Shown here: piece by piece, positions 1-8,853 of the stretch | Numbering within the stretch: the first letter of the stretch is position 1 | Layout: each line of letters starts with the position of its first letter | DNA from: a virus | Lineage: Duplodnaviria; Heunggongvirae; Uroviricota; Caudoviricetes | Length of the DNA stretch: 12,463 nucleotides | Reading direction: 5' to 3' (one strand) | IMG/VR virus record: IMGVR_UViG_2531839234_000008 | Notes under the pieces: generated by a model | What the model was told of the DNA's origin: nothing | The model's database searches: none | What the model saw: the letters and a program-made list of their open reading frames with translations, nothing else | Translations under genes and position numbers: made by a program

Positions 1-163
1 CAATTTCAGAACATCGACGCTTCTTCGCAAAATAAACCAGGGCGATATCAAAGGCGCATGTGATCAGCTACGGCGCTGGACATACGCTGGCGGTAAGCAA
101 TGGAAAGGGCTGATGACTCGCCGCGAGATTGAGCGTGAAGTCTGTTTGTGGGGGCAACAATGA
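1..163 (+). CDS. R: Phage endolysin (lysozyme), C-terminal fragment; 5' end lies outside the window
   Basis: Frame beginning at nt 2 is open from the window edge to TGA at 161-163 and translates to ...[53 protein letters not shown], which I recognise as the C-terminal tail of lambdoid prophage endolysins. Its stop overlaps the Rz start (ATGA at 160-163). Position immediately upstream of Rz fits the lysis cassette. Confidence 0.75.
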
Positions 164-597
164 GCAGGGTAACCGTTATTATCTCCGCTCTGGTTATCTG
201 CATTATCGCCTGCCTGTCATGGGCTGTTAATCATTACCGTGATAACGCCATCGCCTACAAAGAGCAGCGCGATAAAGCCACATCCATCATCGCTGATATG
301 CAGAAGCGGCAACGTGATGTAGCAGAACTTGACGCCAGATACACAAAGGAGCTTGCTGATGCTAATGCGACTATCGAAAGTCTCCGTGCTGATGTTTCTG
401 CTGGGCGTAAGCGCCTGCAAGTCTCCGCCACCTGTGCAAAGTCAACGACCGGAGCCAGCAGCATGGGCGATGGAGAAAGCCCAGGACTTACAGCAGATGC
501 TGAACTCAATTATTACCGTCTCCGAGGTGGAATCGACAAGATAACCGCGCAGGTTAACTACCTGCAGGAGTACATCAGGACGCAATGCCTGAAATAA
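160..597 (+). CDS. Rz: Rz i-spanin (inner-membrane spanin)
   Basis: Translation [39 protein letters not shown]...YTKELADA... closely matches lambda Rz as I remember it (N-terminal TM helix, coiled-coil periplasmic domain). The ORF track starts at GTG 148, but ATG at 160 matches the lambda Rz N-terminus and is coupled to the endolysin stop. Ends TAA 595-597. Confidence 0.9.
359..544 (+). CDS. Rz1: Rz1 o-spanin (outer-membrane lipoprotein), embedded in the +1 frame of Rz
   Basis: The +1 frame inside Rz encodes [20 protein letters not shown]|[13 protein letters not shown]..., a signal peptide with a lipobox-like VSAC followed by a proline-rich segment, as in lambda Rz1. AAAGGAG at 344-350 sits 8 nt before ATG 359. 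An alternative start is ATG 365. Confidence 0.75.
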
Positions 598-630
598 TTT
601 TTTTTGCAAATCACAAAGTCCATTTAATGA

Positions 631-654
631 GCCTCGCGATGCGGGGCTTTTTGC
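631..654 (+). terminator. Putative intrinsic terminator, first of two after Rz
   Basis: GCCTCGC (631-637) pairs with GCGGGGC (641-647) as a 7-bp stem (one G-U), loop GAT, followed by CTTTTTG. A T8 run (598-605) also follows the Rz stop directly. Confidence 0.45.
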
Positions 655-659
655 AATAA

Positions 660-684
660 ATGCGTACCGCAACGCATGTTTTTT
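660..684 (+). terminator. Putative intrinsic terminator, second of two after Rz
   Basis: ATGCGT (660-665) and ACGCAT (672-677) form a perfect 6-bp stem with a 6-nt loop, followed by G and a T6 run (679-684). Confidence 0.5.
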
Positions 685-799
685 ACACCGAACCTGCCCC
701 TTTGGAATGGGCCTTTGAGGATACCAGTTAGTGCTGGCGAGCCTCGGTGGGCTGGTTTCCTGTGCGGCAAAGGTTCATTTCAAAGAGTAGGTACACGCT

Positions 800-1297
800 A
801 TGAAATCATTAACCCTCTTCAATCAACCAATCCGTATCGGTGAAGATGGCATGATCTGCCTCACTGATATGTGGAAAGCCAGTGGTAAAAGTGAATCTGA
901 ATCTCCGTACCACTACCTGCGAAACAAGCAGACCAAAGAGTTCTTGGCTGAGCTGGAGAAAAACCACGAATCTGTGGTTTTTACGGAACGCGGTGCGCAC
1001 GGTGGAACTTATGGCGGAAAGTTCGTTGCTTATGATTACGCAGCATGGCTAAACCCCGGATTTAAATATGCAGCCTATAAAGTCCTCGATGATTACTTCA
1101 CCGGAGAGCTTCATCATCGGAACAGCTTAAGTGCGCAGCTCAACATGAAATGTCATGAGTTTGATCAGAAAAAAGACATGGCGAGCTTCTGTGGACAAGG
1201 CCTCGCGGCATGGCGCTACACGAAACCTGGTTTGATCGCTGAAATTAACTCCCTGGCTAACCAGTTGCAGATTTCGATCCCCGGGCTTCCGGGATGA
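800..1297 (+). CDS. KilA-N-like domain protein, accessory moron gene of unknown function
   Basis: 165-aa ORF. The N-terminal part (...FNQPIRIGEDGMICLTDMWKASGKSESESPYHYLRNKQTKEFLAELEKN...) fits the pattern I associate with KilA-N/APSES-type phage DNA-binding domains (IR-x-DG-x-L-D-x-A-G...P-x-x-(W/Y)L...T-x-E(L/F)). It lies between the lysis cassette and cos, a known moron hotspot in lambdoid phages. Shine-Dalgarno is weak. Domain call is from memory, not a profile search. Confidence 0.6.
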   Translation: MKSLTLFNQPIRIGEDGMICLTDMWKASGKSESESPYHYLRNKQTKEFLAELEKNHESVVFTERGAHGGTYGGKFVAYDYAAWLNPGFKYAAYKVLDDYFTGELHHRNSLSAQLNMKCHEFDQKKDMASFCGQGLAAWRYTKPGLIAEINSLANQLQISIPGLPG

Positions 1298-1551
1298 GTG
1301 ATCGTGTCATTGAATGCGCCTCCAGAGCGGGGCGCGACTTCTCAGAGTTCATGAAAGGCGAGAAGGGTATGATGGAAGCATTGGCCTCGGTGGATGAGTT
1401 TGGCGAGCAGCTGCGCCTCAACGGCTGTGTCAATCATCACTTTGTTAGCTACATGATGCGGAACTCGATCATGCAGGCATTCATGGACATGGCAAAAGCC
1501 GAGAGGAAAGAAGAGCGCCGGCGTAAGCGAGCGGAAGCAAAAGCGAAGTAG
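1294..1551 (+). CDS. Hypothetical small protein (85 aa) with a basic Lys/Arg/Glu-rich C-terminus, translationally coupled to the upstream gene
   Basis: ATG at 1294 overlaps the stop of the preceding ORF (ATGA, 1294-1297). Same-strand ORF ending TAG 1549-1551 and followed immediately by a strong hairpin. C-terminus AKAERKEERRRKRAEAKAK is highly charged. No homolog recognised. The frame is closed by TAA at 1258-1260, so this is not a frameshifted continuation of the KilA-N ORF. Confidence 0.5.
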   Translation: MSDRVIECASRAGRDFSEFMKGEKGMMEALASVDEFGEQLRLNGCVNHHFVSYMMRNSIMQAFMDMAKAERKEERRRKRAEAKAK

Positions 1552-1559
1552 CCATTACA

Positions 1560-1581
1560 AAGCCCATCTACTGGTGGGCTT
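1560..1581 (+). other. Strong hairpin directly after the moron stop codon (possible terminator or RNA-stability element, no U-tract)
   Basis: AAGCCCATC (1560-1568) pairs with GGTGGGCTT (1573-1581) as a roughly 9-bp stem (one G-U) with loop TACT, 9 nt after the TAG stop. It is followed by GATAATGG, not a T-run, so it is not a canonical intrinsic terminator. Confidence 0.35.
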
Positions 1582-1970
1582 GATAATGGCTTATACCCTA
1601 CACGGGATAACTTAACTGATATCCCTTTTAACGGATAAAGGTATTCAAGCCTGACACATCATGCGCTGTATCGTCGCTGTATTTCCGCATTAACCATGAC
1701 CGTAGCCCGACGGGGAATTCCTTCTGCGCGAGTGTGCGGGAATAATCAAAAACGATGCACACCGGGTTTTTACCGCGCTAATGATTCGCGGGTTTGTCCC
1801 TCATGCTCGCCAGTCCTGTGCGGGGGTGGAAGAAACAGGACACTCACACAGATTCTTGTGGGTCGATGCTATTCCTTTCTGGATTATCCCGATGCCATTC
1901 ATGCAAGGGCTGTATCAGACGTTCGTCATGGCTTTCAGGCTGACGGCTCCTCCCGGTGGGGTGGCCTGCC

Positions 1971-1990
1971 ACGGGGCGGGAGCGTCGCGG
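1971..1990. other. cosN: Candidate cosN (cohesive-end nicking site) of a lambda-like packaging system
   Basis: ACGGGGCGGGAGCGTCGCGG (1971-1990) versus the lambda cos junction as I recall it, ACGGGGCGGCGACCTCGCGG: same length, identical flanks (ACGGGGCGG ... TCGCGG), 15 of 20 positions identical, divergence only in the central 5 nt. It sits about 170 bp upstream of the small terminase start, as lambda cosN does relative to Nu1. By analogy the 12-nt cohesive end would be GGGCGGGAGCGT (1974-1985). Confidence 0.5.
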
Positions 1991-2150
1991 AAAAAGGCTA
2001 GTTTTTGCATTTTTATCGGCCACCATCATCTTTGCATCTTATTGATTATTAATGGTTATTTGTTTTTTGTATGTCGAATTGAGTGTTTTTTGTTCGACAT
2101 CGAACGCGTTTTCTTAAAGTTGTTCGCACGATGCATGTTTAAAGCTCTCC
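1991..2150. promoter_or_regulatory. cosB: Candidate cosB-like region (terminase small-subunit/IHF binding) between cosN and the terminase genes
   Basis: AT-rich segment between the cosN candidate and the terminase RBS. It contains a perfect 8-bp inverted repeat, ATGTCGAA (2071-2078) and TTCGACAT (2093-2100), with a 14-bp T-rich spacer. It also has three TGCAT-core repeats (TTTGCATTTTTA 2004-2015, TTTGCATCTTAT 2031-2042, ATGCATGTTTA 2131-2141) and a related TGTTCGCAC at 2121-2129. The role is inferred from position only. Confidence 0.35.
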
Positions 2151-4753: not shown

Positions 4754-4962
4754 ACCAGAATGATATCGAAGCCATGATTCAGCGTTATACGGAAGCTGAA
4801 ATGGCGGTGCTGGACGGAAAATCCGTCACCTTTAATGGTCAGCAGATGACCATGGAAAACTTATCTGAGATCCGGCAGGGACGGCAGGAGTGGGAGCGCC
4901 GCCTTGCGGCTCTGATTACACGACGACGGGGGCATCCCGGGTACCGGCTGGCGAGGTTCTGA
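4750..4962 (+). CDS. W: gpW-like head-tail joining protein
   Basis: 70-aa product MNQNDIEAMIQRYTEAEMAVLDGKSVTFNGQQMTMENLSEIRQGRQEWERRLAALITRRRGHPGYRLARF resembles lambda gpW, including the C-terminal RRRG motif. GGAGG at 4739-4743 lies 6 nt before ATG 4750, which overlaps the large terminase stop (ATGA). The ORF-track start at 4744 has no spacer to the RBS. Confidence 0.8.
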   Translation: MNQNDIEAMIQRYTEAEMAVLDGKSVTFNGQQMTMENLSEIRQGRQEWERRLAALITRRRGHPGYRLARF

Positions 4963-6471
4963 TGGCAATTCTTGATGATGTGATTGGCGTTTTTTCACCA
5001 GGATGGAAAGCGGCAAGGCTGCGTTCCCGTGCGGTGATCCAGGCTTATGAGGCCGTAAAAACGACGCGGACACACAAAGCCCGGCGGGAAAACCGAACTG
5101 CCGACCAGTTAAGCCAGTACGGGGCCGTGTCGTTACGTGAGCAGGCCCGTTACCTTGATAACAACCACGATCTGGTTATTGGTGTATTTGACAAGCTGGA
5201 AGAACGGGTGGTGGGGAAAAACGGGATTATTGTCGAGCCACATCCGGTATTACGCAATGGGGCCATTGCCCGTGATCTGGCCGCGGAGATACGCACCCGA
5301 TGGAGTGAATGGTCTGTCAGTCCGGAAGTCACCGGGCAGTTTACCCGTCCGATGCTGGAACGTCTGATGCTGCGTACCTGGCTGCGCGATGGTGAGGTGT
5401 TTGCCCAGATGGTTTCCGGGCGCATAAACAGCCTGACGCCTTCTGCCGGTGTTCATTTCTGGCTGGAGGCGCTCGAGCCAGACTTTATTCCCATGACCAG
5501 TGATGAGAGCAACAGGCTGAATCAGGGCGTGTTTGTTGATGACTGGGGGCGTCCCGAAAAATATCTGGTGTATAAAAGCCGTCCCGTATCCGGACGGCAG
5601 ATGGAAACCAAAGAAGTGGATGCAGAGCGAATGCTGCATCTTAAATTTGTTCGCCGTCTGCACCAGATGCGCGGGACGTCTTTGTTGTCCGGTGTGCTGA
5701 TCCGCCTCAGTGCCCTGAAAGAGTATGAGGATTCTGAGCTGACTGCAGCAAGGATCGCCGCTGCTCTGGGGATGTACATCCGGAAAGGCGATGGGCAGAG
5801 CTATGAACCGGATGGTAATGGCAGCAAGGATAAGGAACGCGAGCTTACCATTCAGCCAGGCATTATTTACGACGATCTGAAACCCGGCGAAGAAATCGGA
5901 ATGGTGAAGTCGGATCGCCCCAATCCTAACCTTGAAACTTTTCGTAATGGTCAGTTGCGTGCCGTGGCGGCGGGCAGTCGTCTGAATTTTTTCCAGTACA
6001 GCGCGCAACTATAACGGCACTTACAGCGCCCAGCGTCAGGAGCTGGTTGAATCCACTGATGGCTACCTGATCCTGCAGGACTGGTTTATTGGTGCCGTCA
6101 CCCGCCCGATGTATCGTGCCTGGCTGAAACAGGCTGTGGCATCCGGTGTTATCAGGCTACCCCGCGATCTTGACCGTTCTTCACTGTATACCGCGGTGTA
6201 TTCCGGACCGGTGATGCCGTGGATTGACCCTGTTAAGGAGGCTGAGGCCTGGAAAATTCAGATTCGTGGTGGAGCAGCGACAGAATCAGACTGGGTACGT
6301 GCAGGTGGTCGTAATCCGGATGATGTCAAACGTCGGCGCAAGGCCGAAATTGATGAAAACCGCAAGCTGGATCTGGTATTTGATACCGATCCGGCCAGTG
6401 ATAAAGGAGGCAGCAGTGCCGCAACGAAACGACAGGAGCCGCAGCACACCGACGACCAGTCCGAAGAATAA
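4962..6471 (+). pseudogene. B: Portal protein (lambda gpB-like) interrupted by a single frameshift near a T6 run (5987-5992); pseudogene or sequencing error
   Basis: ORF from ATG 4962 (GAGG 5 nt upstream, coupled to the W stop) runs to TAA 6012-6014. The +1 frame is open from 5986 and continues to TAA 6469-6471. Across the junction the downstream frame reads ...LNFSSTARNYNGTYSAQRQ..., which aligns with the lambda gpB block ...SYEQLSRNYAQMSYSTAR... as I recall it, so both pieces are one portal gene. Removing one T from TTTTTT (5987-5992) restores a single ORF of about 502 aa. Confidence 0.8.
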
Positions 6472-8443
6472 TTCCTGGTTCAGGATGCAGGCTGGTCACC
6501 AGAGTGACGCGGATATTTATATTTATGACGAGATTGGTTTCTGGGGTGTTACAGCGAAGCAGTTTATCAGTGATCTGAATGCACTGGGCGATATCACCCA
6601 CATTAATCTCAATATCAATTCACCGGGTGGCGATGTCTTTGAAGGCATCGCCATTTTTAATGCACTGAAAACACATGGTGCGTCCATTACCGTTTATGTC
6701 GACGGTGTGGCGGCGTCAATGGCGTCGGTCATTGCGATGGTGGGAAAACCGGTCATTATGCCGGAAAACTCCTTCATGATGATTCATAAACCATTTGGCT
6801 TTACGGGCGGTGATGCGGAGGACATGCGCACCTATGCCGACCTGCTCGATAAAGTTGAGGCGGTTCTGTTACCCGCTTATGCACAGAAAACCGGGAAAAC
6901 CACCGATGAAATTGCTGCCATGCTGGCGGATGAGACCTGGATGTCCGGTGCCGAATGTCTGGCACATGGATTTGCTGATCAGGTGACGCCAGCCGTTAAG
7001 GCAATGGCATGTATTCAGTCAAAACGTACAGAGGAATTTAAAAAGATGCCGGAATCCATTCGAAACATGATTACTCCGCCACGCAACAGTGCTCCACGCG
7101 TACAGGATGATGGACCTGCAGCCTCCCGGACGCCAGTGCAGGCAGCAGCACCTGTGGTGGATGAAAACAGTATCCGTGCGCAGGTACTGGCAGAGCAAAA
7201 AGCGCGTGTAAACGGTATTAATGATCTGTTTGCCATGTTTGGCGGGCGTTATCAGACGCTGCAGGCTCAGTGTCTTGCCGATCCTGAATGTTCGCTGGAG
7301 CAGGCCCGCGAAAAGCTGTTGAACGAGATGGGGCGCGAGTCCACGCCATCTAATAAAAATACCCCGGCTCATATTTATGCCGGAAACGGTAATTTTGTGG
7401 GGGATGGGATCCGCCAGGCGCTGATGGCGCGTGCCGGATTTGAAAAAACCGAACGTGATAATGTCTACAACGGGATGACCCTGCGTGAATATGCCCGTAT
7501 GTCACTGACTGAACGGGGTATTGGGGTTTCCAGTTATAACCCGATGCAGATGGTCGGTGCGGCGTTCACACACAGTACGTCTGACTTCGGTAATATTCTG
7601 CTGGATGTTGCGAACAAAGCCATTCTGCAGGGCTGGGAAGATGCCCCTGAAACCTATGAACAGTGGACGCGGAAAGGTCAGTTGTCTGATTTTAAAATTG
7701 CCCATCGTGTGGGTATGGGGGGCTTCAGTGCTCTGCGTCAGGTGCGTGAAGGGGCGGAATATAAATACGTCACCACCGGAGATAAACAGGCCACTATTGC
7801 ACTGGCTACCTATGGCGAGCTGTTCAGTATCACCCGTCAGGCCATTATCAATGATGATCTGAATATGCTGACCGATGTCCCGATGAAACTGGGCCGTGCG
7901 GCGAAATCCACTATTGCCGATCTGGTTTATGCCATTCTGACGTCTAACCCGAAAATCTCCACAGATAATGTAAGTCTGTTCGATAAAGCGAAACATGCAA
8001 ACGTACTGGAGAGCGCTGCAATGGACGTGGCATCGCTGGATAAAGCCCGCCAGTTGATGCGCGTTCAGAAAGAGGGGGAGCGTCATCTGAATATTCGTCC
8101 TGCGTTCGTACTGGTACCGACGGCGATGGAGTCTGTTGCTAACCAGGTCATTCGCTCCTCAAGTGTCAAGGGGGCTGACATTAACGCCGGTATTATTAAC
8201 CCGGTGAAAGATTTTGCGACCGTTATTGCAGAGCCTCGTCTTGATGATAACAGCCAGACCACCTTCTACCTGGCTGCGTCAAAAGGCTCCGATACGATTG
8301 AAGTGGCTTATCTCAACGGTGTGGATACGCCATATATTGATCAGATGGAGGGCTTCAGTGTGGATGGCGTGACAACGAAAGTGCGTATTGACGCCGGTGT
8401 CGCGCCAGTTGATCACCGCGGTCTGGTGAAATGTACGGCGTAA
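6416..8443 (+). CDS. Prohead protease (ClpP/S14-like) fused in one ORF to the presumed scaffold/major capsid region
   Basis: 675 codons from GTG 6416, which has AAGGAGG 5 nt upstream (alternative start ATG 6485). The N-terminal ~200 aa carry ClpP-like motifs: ...NSPGGDVFEGIAIFNALK..., catalytic-Ser context GVAASMASV (Ser codon 6716-6718), His context MMIHKP. The remaining ~470 aa have no recognisable motif. Because no separate capsid gene exists between portal and the head-completion/tail genes, synteny implies the major capsid protein is encoded here. Confidence 0.75.
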   Translation: MPQRNDRSRSTPTTSPKNNSWFRMQAGHQSDADIYIYDEIGFWGVTAKQFISDLNALGDITHINLNINSPGGDVFEGIAIFNALKTHGASITVYVDGVAASMASVIAMVGKPVIMPENSFMMIHKPFGFTGGDAEDMRTYADLLDKVEAVLLPAYAQKTGKTTDEIAAMLADETWMSGAECLAHGFADQVTPAVKAMACIQSKRTEEFKKMPESIRNMITPPRNSAPRVQDDGPAASRTPVQAAAPVVDENSIRAQVLAEQKARVNGINDLFAMFGGRYQTLQAQCLADPECSLEQAREKLLNEMGRESTPSNKNTPAHIYAGNGNFVGDGIRQALMARAGFEKTERDNVYNGMTLREYARMSLTERGIGVSSYNPMQMVGAAFTHSTSDFGNILLDVANKAILQGWEDAPETYEQWTRKGQLSDFKIAHRVGMGGFSALRQVREGAEYKYVTTGDKQATIALATYGELFSITRQAIINDDLNMLTDVPMKLGRAAKSTIADLVYAILTSNPKISTDNVSLFDKAKHANVLESAAMDVASLDKARQLMRVQKEGERHLNIRPAFVLVPTAMESVANQVIRSSSVKGADINAGIINPVKDFATVIAEPRLDDNSQTTFYLAASKGSDTIEVAYLNGVDTPYIDQMEGFSVDGVTTKVRIDAGVAPVDHRGLVKCTA

Positions 8444-8466: not shown

Positions 8467-8487
8467 GGCCCGTAAGGGCTTTTTTTG
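8467..8487 (+). terminator. Putative intrinsic terminator after the capsid ORF
   Basis: GGCCC (8467-8471), GTAA tetraloop, GGGCT (8476-8480) giving a 5-bp stem, followed by an 8-T run (8480-8487), 24 nt after the stop at 8443. Confidence 0.5.
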
Positions 8488-8497
8488 TACCTGAAAT

Positions 8498-8516
8498 CAG
8501 CCCCTGAACGGGGCTG
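8498..8516 (+). other. Second GC-rich hairpin just upstream of the next gene's RBS, no U-tract
   Basis: CAGCCCC (8498-8504) pairs with GGGGCTG (8510-8516) as a perfect 7-bp stem with loop TGAAC. It ends 13 nt before ATG 8530. Confidence 0.4.
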
Positions 8517-8529
8517 TGCGGAGACAGTT

Positions 8530-8853
8530 ATGGCAAAGAATTTTGTAGAAGAAGGAAAAACGGTGGCGATTGTTGCCAGTGCAGCCATCAGCAGCGGAGA
8601 TCTGGTGCAGGTGGGCGATGTTTTTGCGGTGGCGCTGACCGATATTCCACAGGGTGAAACAGGCGACGGCATGACCGAAGGTGTGTTTATGCTGCCTAAG
8701 CTGAAAACGGATGACATGAAAACGGGTAAGAAGGTTTATCTGAAGTCAGGAAAAGTTCAGCTGACTAACAGCGGCTCTGATCCGCTGGTCGGGGTTGTCT
8801 GGGCAGATGCCGGAACCAGTGCAGAAGAAGTGCCGGTAAAACTCAATGTCTGA
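8530..8853 (+). CDS. Small head protein, possibly a decoration/cement protein (DUF2190-like as I recall the family)
   Basis: 107-aa product MAKNFVEEGKTVAIVASAAISSGDLVQVGDVFAVALTDIPQGETGDG... Position is directly after the capsid ORF. ATG 8530 is preferred over the ORF-track start 8485 because of the hairpins and a GGAGA about 6 nt upstream. Family assignment is from memory and uncertain. Confidence 0.55.
   Translation: MAKNFVEEGKTVAIVASAAISSGDLVQVGDVFAVALTDIPQGETGDGMTEGVFMLPKLKTDDMKTGKKVYLKSGKVQLTNSGSDPLVGVVWADAGTSAEEVPVKLNV

What the first reader, a model, noticed from the sequence alone, without database searches (positions are those of the whole stretch)
6416..8443. Single 675-codon ORF fusing a ClpP-like prohead protease to the presumed scaffold and major capsid protein
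Lambda encodes protease C (with nested scaffold Nu3), decoration protein D and capsid protein E separately. Here one ORF carries the ClpP-like protease (N-terminal ~200 aa, Ser/His motifs present) and runs without a stop through about 470 more residues to the only place a capsid protein can be encoded. Capsid protein is needed in hundreds of copies and protease in few, so either every subunit carries a self-cleaving protease domain or an internal in-frame start makes a protease-less scaffold-capsid product, as with lambda C/Nu3. One candidate internal start is ATG 7046-7048, with GAGGA 10 nt upstream. I believe similar fusions are annotated in some enterobacterial prophages, but cannot verify that here. 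The head module is thus organised differently from the clearly lambda-like tail module, consistent with mosaicism.
Basis: partly seen in the sequence, partly recalled or inferred. Interest (0 to 1): 0.55.

Follow-up and report, generated by a model that had tools for sequence, protein, structure and literature searches.

The report
Known protease-scaffold-capsid fusion gene
This is an ordinary copy of the already described "tripartite" phage head gene (as in Salmonella phage Gifsy-2), which encodes the head protease, a scaffold segment and the capsid protein in one reading frame. Comparative evidence suggests it also makes a protease-less scaffold-capsid protein from a conserved internal start.

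Summary
Window 6416-8443 (+) is an uninterrupted 675-codon ORF with three parts: an N-terminal ClpP-type serine protease, a short helical middle domain, and a C-terminal HK97-fold major capsid protein.

It is not new. It scores 980 bits (cut-off 475) against NCBIfam NF045540, [quoted passage not shown]. It is about 99% identical to phages mEp460, cdtI and phi458, and 70% identical to the Gifsy-2 "tripartite capsid gene" (Effantin et al. 2010). The same architecture was described for Pseudomonas phage MD8. More than 100 diverged protein clusters share it, so a sequencing error is excluded.

- The ATG is invariant in 86 loci at 46-99% identity.
- An RGGA Shine-Dalgarno core lies 9-10 nt upstream in all of them and is kept through amino-acid changes.
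- Eight diverged lineages, including a second fusion family, each have an SD+ATG in the protease-scaffold linker.

Most likely there are two products: a 73-kDa full-length protein and a 51-kDa scaffold-capsid protein, as with lambda C/Nu3. This is inferred, not shown. GTG 6416 is the better-supported start, not RefSeq's ATG 6485. The adjacent portal gene is frameshifted in this copy.

The parts
6404..6410 (+). Shine-Dalgarno AAGGAGG for the full-length product, 5 nt upstream of GTG 6416
   Evidence: Sequence. Duplex energy with the 16S 3' end is -11.6 kcal/mol, against -2.2 for ATG 6485. This alignment column has the strongest SD of 651 columns across 86 loci.
6416..8443 (+). Full-length protease-scaffold-capsid ORF: 675 codons plus TAA, predicted 73.4 kDa. 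It overlaps the portal gene end by 56 nt.
   Evidence: NF045540, 980 bits against cut-off 475; 70% identical to the Gifsy-2 gene; mass.
6506..6988 (+). ClpP-type (S14) prohead protease domain, residues 31-191. Catalytic Ser101 is at 6716-6718 and His124 at 6785-6787.
   Evidence: Pfam CLP_protease E 4e-36. PDB ClpP sequence hits down to E 5e-16. AF2 pLDDT above 90, and Foldseek matches ClpP with TM about 0.8 normalised to the target. Ser101 and His124 are invariant in 94 sequences.
7031..7035 (+). Internal Shine-Dalgarno-like GAGGA, 10 nt upstream of ATG 7046
   Evidence: An RGGA core is present in 86 of 86 loci. The codon carrying it is G-ending in 53 of 53 non-redundant sequences. It is the only one of 40 E/K/Q columns at 100%; the background is 45%.
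7046..8443 (+). Predicted nested product from the internal in-frame start at Met211: scaffold plus capsid protein, 465 aa, 50.6 kDa
   Evidence: The ATG is invariant in 86 loci. It is the only conserved internal start codon with an SD in all sequences. Analogous SD+ATG sites occur in the linker of 8 diverged lineages. Translation from this site has not been shown experimentally.
7085..7150 (+). Disordered Pro/Ala/Gln-rich linker, residues 224-245, variable in length and sequence
   Evidence: AF2 pLDDT below 50. The region is variable in alignments.
7163..7336 (+). Helical scaffold-like (delta-like) domain, residues 250-307, three helices
   Evidence: AF2 helices at 250-273, 280-288 and 294-307, pLDDT 88-97. 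The scaffolding role is inferred by analogy with the HK97 delta domain and lambda Nu3.
7337..7393 (+). Low-confidence loop, residues 308-326; probable region of the maturation cleavage that frees the capsid protein
   Evidence: pLDDT dips to 51-70 between two well-folded domains. The cleavage site itself was not determined.
7394..8440 (+). HK97-fold major capsid protein domain, residues 327-675
   Evidence: Pfam Phage_capsid_4 E 6e-55 and Mu-like_gpT. AF2 model pLDDT 88.7. Foldseek matches phage capsids including phiXacJX1, HK97 Head II and D3, and encapsulins, probability 1.00.
8467..8487 (+). Terminator-like hairpin (GGCCC GTAA GGGCT) followed by T7, between the capsid gene and the decoration gene
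   Evidence: Annotated as a rho-independent terminator at the same place in mEp460.
8530..8853 (+). Head decoration (cement) protein gene
   Evidence: Pfam Phage_cement_2 E 1e-20. PHROG 122 'head decoration' E 3e-47. mEp460 annotation.
4962..6471 (+). Lambda-family portal gene, interrupted in this window by a 1-nt insertion in a T run at 5987-5992
   Evidence: Pfam Phage_portal_2 E 1e-73 on the first fragment. Alignment with mEp460. 78 of 79 matched close relatives lack the insertion.

Best explanation
The ORF is a member of the known Gifsy-2-type "tripartite" capsid gene family (NCBIfam NF045540). One reading frame encodes a ClpP-type prohead protease (residues about 20-192), a flexible linker, a three-helix scaffold-like domain (250-307) and an HK97-fold major capsid protein (about 327-675).

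Proposed mechanism:
1. Translation starts at two places. GTG 6416 has a strong AAGGAGG and overlaps the portal gene end, as lambda C does. It gives the 73-kDa full-length protein.
2. The conserved internal GAGGA-N10-ATG at 7046 gives a 51-kDa scaffold-capsid protein without protease. This is analogous to lambda Nu3 nested in C, and resembles HK97 gp5 (delta domain plus capsid protein).
3. Both products co-assemble through their identical capsid domains on the portal into a T=7 procapsid. The protease and scaffold parts face inward, so the protease is delivered by being part of some capsid subunits.
4. The protease then removes everything N-terminal of about residues 308-326. The shell expands during DNA packaging, and the decoration protein encoded at 8530-8853 binds.

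Shown here: domain identities and folds, family membership, the start-site signals and their conservation. Inferred: use of the internal start, co-assembly, the cleavage region, T=7 geometry and decoration (the last two by homology to Gifsy-2).
For: Family membership:
- NF045540 scores 980 bits against a cut-off of 475.
- 70% identity over 669 aa to the Gifsy-2 gene, whose protease and coat genes are described as fused (PMC12315714, citing Effantin 2010).
- MD8 gp5 (56% identical) is described as protease, scaffold and capsid protein in one gene (PMC8508860).

Folds:
- AF2 pLDDT is 87 for the full length and 88.7 for residues 211-675.
- The N-domain matches ClpP structures and the C-domain matches HK97-fold capsids.
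- Catalytic Ser101 and His124 are invariant.

Start at GTG 6416:
- It is the top SD column of 651, and 91% of loci have a start codon there.
- The conserved SW[FY] motif lies upstream of ATG 6485, and Met24 is Ile in Gifsy-2, Fels-1 and Pseudomonas phages.

Internal start at ATG 7046:
- The ATG is invariant in 86 loci at 46-99% identity.
- SD duplex energy is -5 kcal/mol or stronger in 100% of loci, against 12% of all codon positions.
- The RGGA core survives E/K/Q/G amino-acid replacements. The wobble base is G in 53 of 53 sequences, the only such column of 40.
- Of 12 conserved start-codon columns, only 6416 and 7046 carry a consistently strong SD: 70% and 100% of loci at -5 kcal/mol or stronger. 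Met137 reaches that in 58% of loci, but there the GAGGAC lies directly against the ATG, too close to act as an SD.
- Eight diverged lineages, including Stenotrophomonas S1 of the second fusion family, each have an in-frame SD+ATG in the linker. This is about 9-fold enriched, with a rough chance probability of about 1e-8.
- Control: the same scan on lambda gene C picks only Met309. From my own knowledge this is the Nu3 start.
- Both start regions fold less stably than shuffled sequence.
Against: - No protein-level data were available here, and the full text of Effantin 2010 is not held. Neither the existence of the 51-kDa product nor the ratio of the two products is shown.
- In more distant cluster representatives (35-45% identity), Met211 is replaced by A/V/I/T before a conserved Pro. 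This exact site is therefore not universal, and part of its conservation is a protein-level motif.
- SD-like sequences inside genes also arise from amino-acid constraints. Four other SD-like column clusters exist in the alignment.
- The enrichment test was designed after the first examples had been seen.
- In this particular window the portal gene is frameshifted, so this copy may never be used to build a virion.
Confidence: 0.72

Rival explanations
1. There is a single product only. Every capsid subunit is made as the 73-kDa protease-scaffold-capsid polyprotein and about 415 protease domains are packed into each procapsid. The conserved SD-like motif and Met211 serve another purpose, for example a protein motif at the protease C-terminus or a ribosome pause at the domain boundary.
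For: - The frame is open throughout, with no stop, and the family is defined by the fusion.
- Pro212 and the F-x(3-5)-x-P motif are conserved as protein in distant members where the Met is not.
- My rough estimate, not a tool result: 415 x about 35 kDa would fill about 35-45% of a T=7 procapsid interior. That is dense but not impossible.
Against: - Conservation of RGGA at the nucleotide level across amino-acid changes, at a fixed 9-10 nt from an invariant ATG, is the signature of an initiation site rather than a peptide motif.
- Non-homologous SD+ATG sites recur in the linker of all 8 lineages examined.
- The same scan recovers the nested start in lambda C.
Confidence: 0.2
2. The long ORF is an artefact: two genes (protease and capsid) joined by a sequencing or assembly error in this window.
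For: The neighbouring portal gene does carry a homopolymer-length difference that could be a sequencing error.
Against: - The uninterrupted fusion is present in 74 phage records, 80 species genomes, 598 IMG/VR stretches and more than 100 diverged protein clusters.
- It has its own curated NCBIfam model.
- AF2 gives a continuous, confident multi-domain model.
Confidence: 0.01
3. In this particular genome the gene is an unused relic. The prophage is defective because its portal gene is frameshifted, so the intact capsid ORF makes no virions here.
For: There is a 1-nt insertion in the T run at 5987-5992. It splits the portal into 4962-6014 and 6109-6471. It is absent from 78 of 79 matched close relatives.
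Against: - The insertion is in a homopolymer and could be a sequencing error or a phase-variable tract.
- The capsid ORF itself is 99% identical to those of viable phages and carries no lesion.
- This affects only whether this copy is used, not what the gene is.
Confidence: 0.35

Closest known systems
Salmonella phage Gifsy-2 tripartite capsid gene (STM1034.3n in NC_010393; Effantin et al. 2010, Virology 402:355) and NCBIfam NF045540
   Same: - Same domain order: ClpP-like protease, central helical domain, HK97-fold capsid protein.
- 70% amino-acid identity over 669 residues.
- Same neighbours: lambda-type portal upstream with overlap, decoration gene downstream.
- Same conserved Met-Pro site, with GAGGAG upstream in Gifsy-2.

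   Different: There are only sequence-level differences. The N-terminal 17-28 residues and the Pro/Ala-rich linker are not conserved. This copy sits next to a frameshifted portal gene.
Phage lambda C / Nu3 nested genes
   Same: - A protease gene that starts with GTG and a strong SD and overlaps the portal gene end.
- An in-frame internal SD+ATG that yields the scaffold part without the protease.
- A separate decoration gene.
(the C/Nu3 overlap is established knowledge)
   Different: - Lambda C is an S49-family peptidase, not ClpP/S14.
- In lambda the capsid protein E is a separate gene downstream of D. Here the capsid domain is joined in frame to the scaffold, and the decoration gene follows it.
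Phage HK97 gp5 (delta domain fused to the capsid protein) with separate protease gp4
   Same: The predicted internal product (helical N-terminal domain followed directly by an HK97 fold) has the gp5 layout, and the helical part is presumably removed by the protease.
   Different: - The protease is in the same ORF rather than in a separate gene, and it belongs to a different family.
- A decoration protein is present, which suggests cementing rather than HK97-style covalent chainmail. This was not tested.
Pseudomonas phage MD8 gp5 (and F10, JBD68); Stenotrophomonas phage S1 gp8 (NF045541-type fusion)
   Same: MD8 gp5 is 56% identical and is described in print as protease, scaffold and capsid protein in a single gene (PMC8508860). 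S1 gp8 is annotated 'major head and protease protein' and also has an SD+ATG (MPQP...) at the junction.
   Different: The S1 N-terminal domain is not ClpP-like: the Ser and His motifs are absent in the alignment. The window protein scores below the cut-off for NF045541 (399 against 525).

Membership tests
NF045540 / Gifsy-2-type ClpP-protease-scaffold-capsid fusion | Whole-protein score above the curated family cut-off | tested here: met
   980.3 bits against a cut-off of 475, covering residues 32-674.
NF045540 / Gifsy-2-type ClpP-protease-scaffold-capsid fusion | ClpP-fold N-terminal domain with catalytic Ser and His | tested here: met
   Pfam CLP_protease E 4e-36. Foldseek matches ClpP structures. 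Ser101 and His124 are invariant.
NF045540 / Gifsy-2-type ClpP-protease-scaffold-capsid fusion | HK97-fold capsid domain at the C-terminus of the same uninterrupted ORF | tested here: met
   Pfam Phage_capsid_4 E 6e-55. AF2 plus Foldseek match HK97, D3 and phiXacJX1 capsids. There is no internal stop.
NF045540 / Gifsy-2-type ClpP-protease-scaffold-capsid fusion | Position between a lambda-family portal gene and a decoration gene | tested here: met
NF045540 / Gifsy-2-type ClpP-protease-scaffold-capsid fusion | Proteolytic maturation to a capsid-only protein in a T=7 decorated shell | not testable with these tools
   Known for Gifsy-2 only from the literature (title and citations seen). It needs virion protein analysis.
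Lambda C/Nu3-type nested protease/scaffold gene | In-frame internal start codon with a ribosome-binding site downstream of the protease domain | tested here: met
   GAGGA-N10-ATG at 7031-7048, conserved in 86 loci with synonymous-site constraint. Lambda control.
Lambda C/Nu3-type nested protease/scaffold gene | The internally initiated protein is actually made | not testable with these tools
   Requires a western blot, mass spectrometry or initiation-site profiling.
Lambda C/Nu3-type nested protease/scaffold gene | S49-family (SppA-like) protease homologous to gpC | tested here: not met
   The domain is ClpP/S14. TIGR00706 SppA_dom scores only 22 bits against a cut-off of 155, and lambda C is annotated as an S49 peptidase. 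The gene works like C/Nu3 but is not a member.
HK97 gp5-type delta-domain capsid protein | Protease encoded by a separate gene | tested here: not met
   The protease is in the same ORF.
HK97 gp5-type delta-domain capsid protein | Helical N-terminal domain directly preceding the HK97 fold | tested here: met
   AF2 helices at 250-307, followed by the capsid fold from about 327.

The most novel reading that the evidence does not exclude
The tripartite capsid gene is really a nested pair. A conserved internal initiation site makes the protease-less scaffold-capsid protein the main building block. The full-length protein is a minor subunit that carries the protease into the procapsid by co-assembling through its own capsid domain. 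The ratio of protease to capsid protein would then be set by two ribosome-binding sites. This arrangement would be maintained across the whole fusion family, even where the site has moved. I could not establish whether this has already been proposed or tested in print.
Probability: 0.6. Interest if true: 0.4.

Novelty: already known. Interest (0 to 1): 0.27.

Why it matters
The fused gene has been described, has a curated family model, and is common in Gammaproteobacterial prophages. It is therefore not a discovery.

Its practical value is for annotation:
- Public records of near-identical phages call it variously "head maturation protease", "Nu3", "major capsid protein" or "terminase protein".
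- RefSeq starts it 23 codons too late.
- Capsid-finding pipelines can miss it. PMC8814770 failed to recover an HK97-fold capsid protein for Gifsy-2.

The comparative evidence for a conserved internal start gives a concrete, cheaply testable answer to how a phage can make hundreds of capsid subunits and fewer protease copies from one reading frame.

Tried and rejected
- Papers not held. I tried to read Effantin 2010, Duda 2013, Liu & Mushegian 2004 and Casjens & Hendrix 2015. What Effantin 2010 reports on protein bands or internal starts could therefore not be checked.
- PDB sequence search with the whole protein returned only ClpP chains. Foldseek with the full-length model was also dominated by ClpP. 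A second model of residues 211-675 was needed to test the capsid fold.
- I tested whether Met211 is conserved across the whole family. It is not. Beyond about 50% identity it is A/V/I/T before a conserved Pro. I therefore rejected "one universally conserved start codon" and looked for start sites lineage by lineage instead.
- I looked for natural split versions, that is a stand-alone scaffold-capsid gene starting at the Met-Pro site. P0228 and P0166 start exactly there, but P0228 lies on a 1501-nt contig and its nearest relatives are full-length fusions. It is a contig-edge truncation. Viral and metagenome scans did not recover either locus. This is no evidence either way.
- IMG/VR scans with P0151, P0193 and P0140 gave few full-length loci.
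- ATG 6485 (the RefSeq start) was rejected. Its SD is weak (-2.2 kcal/mol), the Met is not conserved, and a conserved motif lies upstream of it.
- Other conserved in-frame Met codons (102, 108, 115, 121, 122, 354, 377, 548) lack an SD. Met137 has a GAGGAC directly abutting the ATG, which is the wrong spacing.
Full report
**Observation**

Window 6416-8443 on the + strand translates without interruption into 675 codons and ends at TAA 8441-8443. The mechanical ORF in that frame runs from 6224.

In numbering from GTG 6416, Pfam finds a Clp protease domain at residues 31-191 (E 4e-36) and a Phage_capsid_4 domain at 375-672 (E 6e-55), with a weaker Mu-like gpT match. The upstream genes are a lambda-type terminase and portal. 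The downstream gene, 8530-8853, is a head-decoration (cement) protein.

**What it is**

The protein scores 980 bits against NCBIfam NF045540, [quoted passage not shown] (cut-off 475), and matches PHROG 133 end to end.

- The DNA is 98.5-99.4% identical to cultured phages phi458, mEp460, cdtI, Tritos and Ayreon, and about 77% identical to Stx-converting phages and VT1-Sakai.
[quoted passage not shown] That gene is the subject of Effantin et al. [quoted passage not shown] - The 56%-identical gp5 of Pseudomonas phage MD8 has been described as encoding protease, scaffold and capsid protein in one gene (PMC8508860).
- An exhaustive profile-free search found 6,898 50%-identity clusters at E below 1e-30. 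More than 100 of the best 150 align over essentially the whole length at 35-60% identity.

The fusion is therefore real, widespread and already named. A sequencing error is excluded.

**Structure**

An AlphaFold2 model built on a 94-sequence alignment is confident (mean pLDDT 87). It shows these parts:

| Residues | Feature |
|---|---|
| 1-17 | Disordered |
| about 20-192 | Protease domain, pLDDT above 90 |
| 203-219 | Two short helices |
| 224-245 | Disordered Pro/Ala-rich linker |
| 250-307 | Three helices |
| 308-326 | Low-confidence loop |
| 327-675 | Large alpha/beta domain |

Foldseek against the PDB matches the N-terminal domain to ClpP (TM about 0.8 normalised to the target). A separate model of residues 211-675 (pLDDT 88.7) matches phage capsid proteins of the HK97 fold, including phiXacJX1, HK97 Head II and D3, as well as encapsulins (probability 1.00).

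Ser101 and His124 are invariant in the alignment.

**Where translation starts**

RefSeq starts the mEp460 gene at the ATG equivalent to window 6485. The evidence favours GTG 6416:

- In an alignment of 86 loci (46-99% identity; Enterobacterales, Pasteurellaceae, Pseudomonas and Shewanella), the column of GTG 6416 has the strongest Shine-Dalgarno complementarity of all 651 columns. The mean is -8.0 kcal/mol, and 91% of loci have GTG or ATG there.
- In the window itself, AAGGAGG lies 5 nt upstream of GTG 6416 (-11.6 kcal/mol). ATG 6485 scores only -2.2.
- A conserved SW[FY] motif lies upstream of ATG 6485, and that Met is Ile in Gifsy-2, Fels-1 and the Pseudomonas phages.

GTG 6416 overlaps the portal gene end by 56 nt. 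Lambda's GTG-initiated gene C overlaps gene B in the same way.

**The internal start**

I tested the proposed site comparatively.

- The Met211 codon is ATG in 86 of 86 loci.
- In all of them an RGGA core lies 9-10 nt upstream. Duplex energy with the 16S 3' end is -5 kcal/mol or stronger in 100% of loci, against 12% of all codon positions.
- The motif is kept at the nucleotide level while the encoded residues change: GAG-GAA/GAC (Glu-Glu or Glu-Asp), CAG-GAG (Gln-Glu), AAG-GAT (Lys-Asp) and GGA-GAC (Gly-Asp).
- Among 40 alignment columns dominated by Glu, Lys or Gln codons, overall G-ending usage is 45%. This column is the only one at 100% (53 of 53 non-redundant sequences); the next highest is 80%.
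- Of 12 conserved start-codon columns, only those at 6416 and 7046 have a strong SD in most or all loci (70% and 100% at -5 kcal/mol or stronger). Met137 reaches that threshold in 58% of loci, but its GAGGAC directly abuts the ATG, which is the wrong spacing for an SD.

In more distant family members (35-45% identity) this Met is replaced by Ala, Val, Ile or Thr before a conserved Pro. The exact site is therefore not universal.

However, every diverged lineage for which I could get DNA has another in-frame SD+ATG in the linker between protease and helical domain, often again followed by Pro. The lineages were six groups of IMG/VR contigs and Stenotrophomonas phage S1 of the second fusion family. 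Such sites are about nine times denser in the linker than elsewhere in these ORFs. The rough chance of all eight lineages having one is about 1e-8, but this test was designed after the first cases had been seen.

As a control, the same scan on lambda gene C picks a single internal ATG, Met309, with AGGAGG upstream. From my own knowledge this is the Nu3 start. Both start regions in the window fold less stably than shuffled sequence.

**Most likely mechanism**

Two primary products are predicted: the 73.4-kDa full-length protein and a 50.6-kDa scaffold-capsid protein from ATG 7046. They would co-assemble through their shared capsid domain on the portal. The protease would then remove everything N-terminal of roughly residues 308-326, and the decoration protein would bind the expanded shell.

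The folds, family membership and start signals are shown. Use of the internal start, co-assembly, the cleavage region, and the T=7 decorated shell (by homology to Gifsy-2) are inferred.

The main rival is a single product, with a protease on every subunit. It is not excluded. By my rough estimate, 415 copies of a 35-kDa internal portion would fill about 35-45% of a T=7 procapsid. That is dense but possible.

**Comparison with known systems**

This is a member of the Gifsy-2 / NF045540 family, and every sequence-testable defining feature is met.

- It works like lambda C/Nu3 (a nested in-frame start in a protease gene that overlaps the portal). It is not a member of that family, because the protease is ClpP/S14 rather than S49 and the capsid gene is joined in frame.
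- Its predicted internal product has the layout of HK97 gp5 (helical domain plus HK97 fold), but the protease is not a separate gene.

**Novelty and verdict**

The finding as stated is already known and annotated.

I could not check whether that has been published, because the key paper is not held.

Interest is low to moderate. A specialist would not be surprised by the fusion. The nested start is a tidy, testable detail rather than a new kind of system.

Noticed in passing
window 4962-6471 (T run at 5987-5992): The lambda-family portal gene is split into two ORFs (ending at 6014, resuming at 6109-6471) by a 1-nt insertion in a T run (A+T6 here). 78 of 79 matched close relatives have G+T5 and an intact gene. 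Only L005, whose capsid protein is 100% identical, shares the insertion. This is either a defective prophage or a homopolymer sequencing error.
   Followed up: partly
window 6416 vs 6485; L001 (mEp460) 4352: RefSeq records of mEp460 and cdtI start the fused gene at the ATG equivalent to 6485 and name it only 'head maturation protease'. Other near-identical records call it 'Nu3', 'major capsid protein' or 'terminase protein'. SD strength and conservation favour GTG 6416, 23 codons upstream.
   Followed up: yes
window 8467-8487 and 8499-8517: A terminator-like hairpin with a T7 tail lies directly after the capsid gene, and a second GC-rich hairpin lies just before the decoration gene's ribosome-binding site. 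mEp460 is annotated with a rho-independent terminator at the first. This may tune the ratio of decoration protein to capsid protein.
   Followed up: partly
window 7025-7051 (residues 204-212): A peptide motif F-x(3-5)-[M/A/V/I/T]-P follows the protease domain. Pro212 is conserved in about 95% of 133 diverged cluster representatives, even where Met211 is not. Its role is unknown; it could be a docking site, a cleavage site or a structural cap.
   Followed up: partly
L276 (lambda NC_001416) 5132 vs 5342: In lambda gene C the only internal in-frame ATG with a strong SD is Met309 (AGGAGG, -10.8 kcal/mol). The RefSeq nu3 CDS is drawn from 5132, where the SD is weak (-2.7).
   Followed up: no
proteins P0006, P0033, P0034, P0061, P0080: Public databases hold chimeric 'proteins' in which this capsid gene is joined to terminase, portal or tail domains (for example 1135 aa with a portal domain). 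These probably come from frameshifts or assembly joins in prophage regions. The open frame upstream of 6416 (to 6224) makes portal-capsid read-through calls easy.
   Followed up: no
window 1-2133: By alignment offset, mEp460 genome position 1 (the start of its small terminase gene) corresponds to about window 2134. The first 2.1 kb of the window therefore lies upstream of the packaging module, as expected for a prophage or a permuted assembly. I did not examine it.
   Followed up: no
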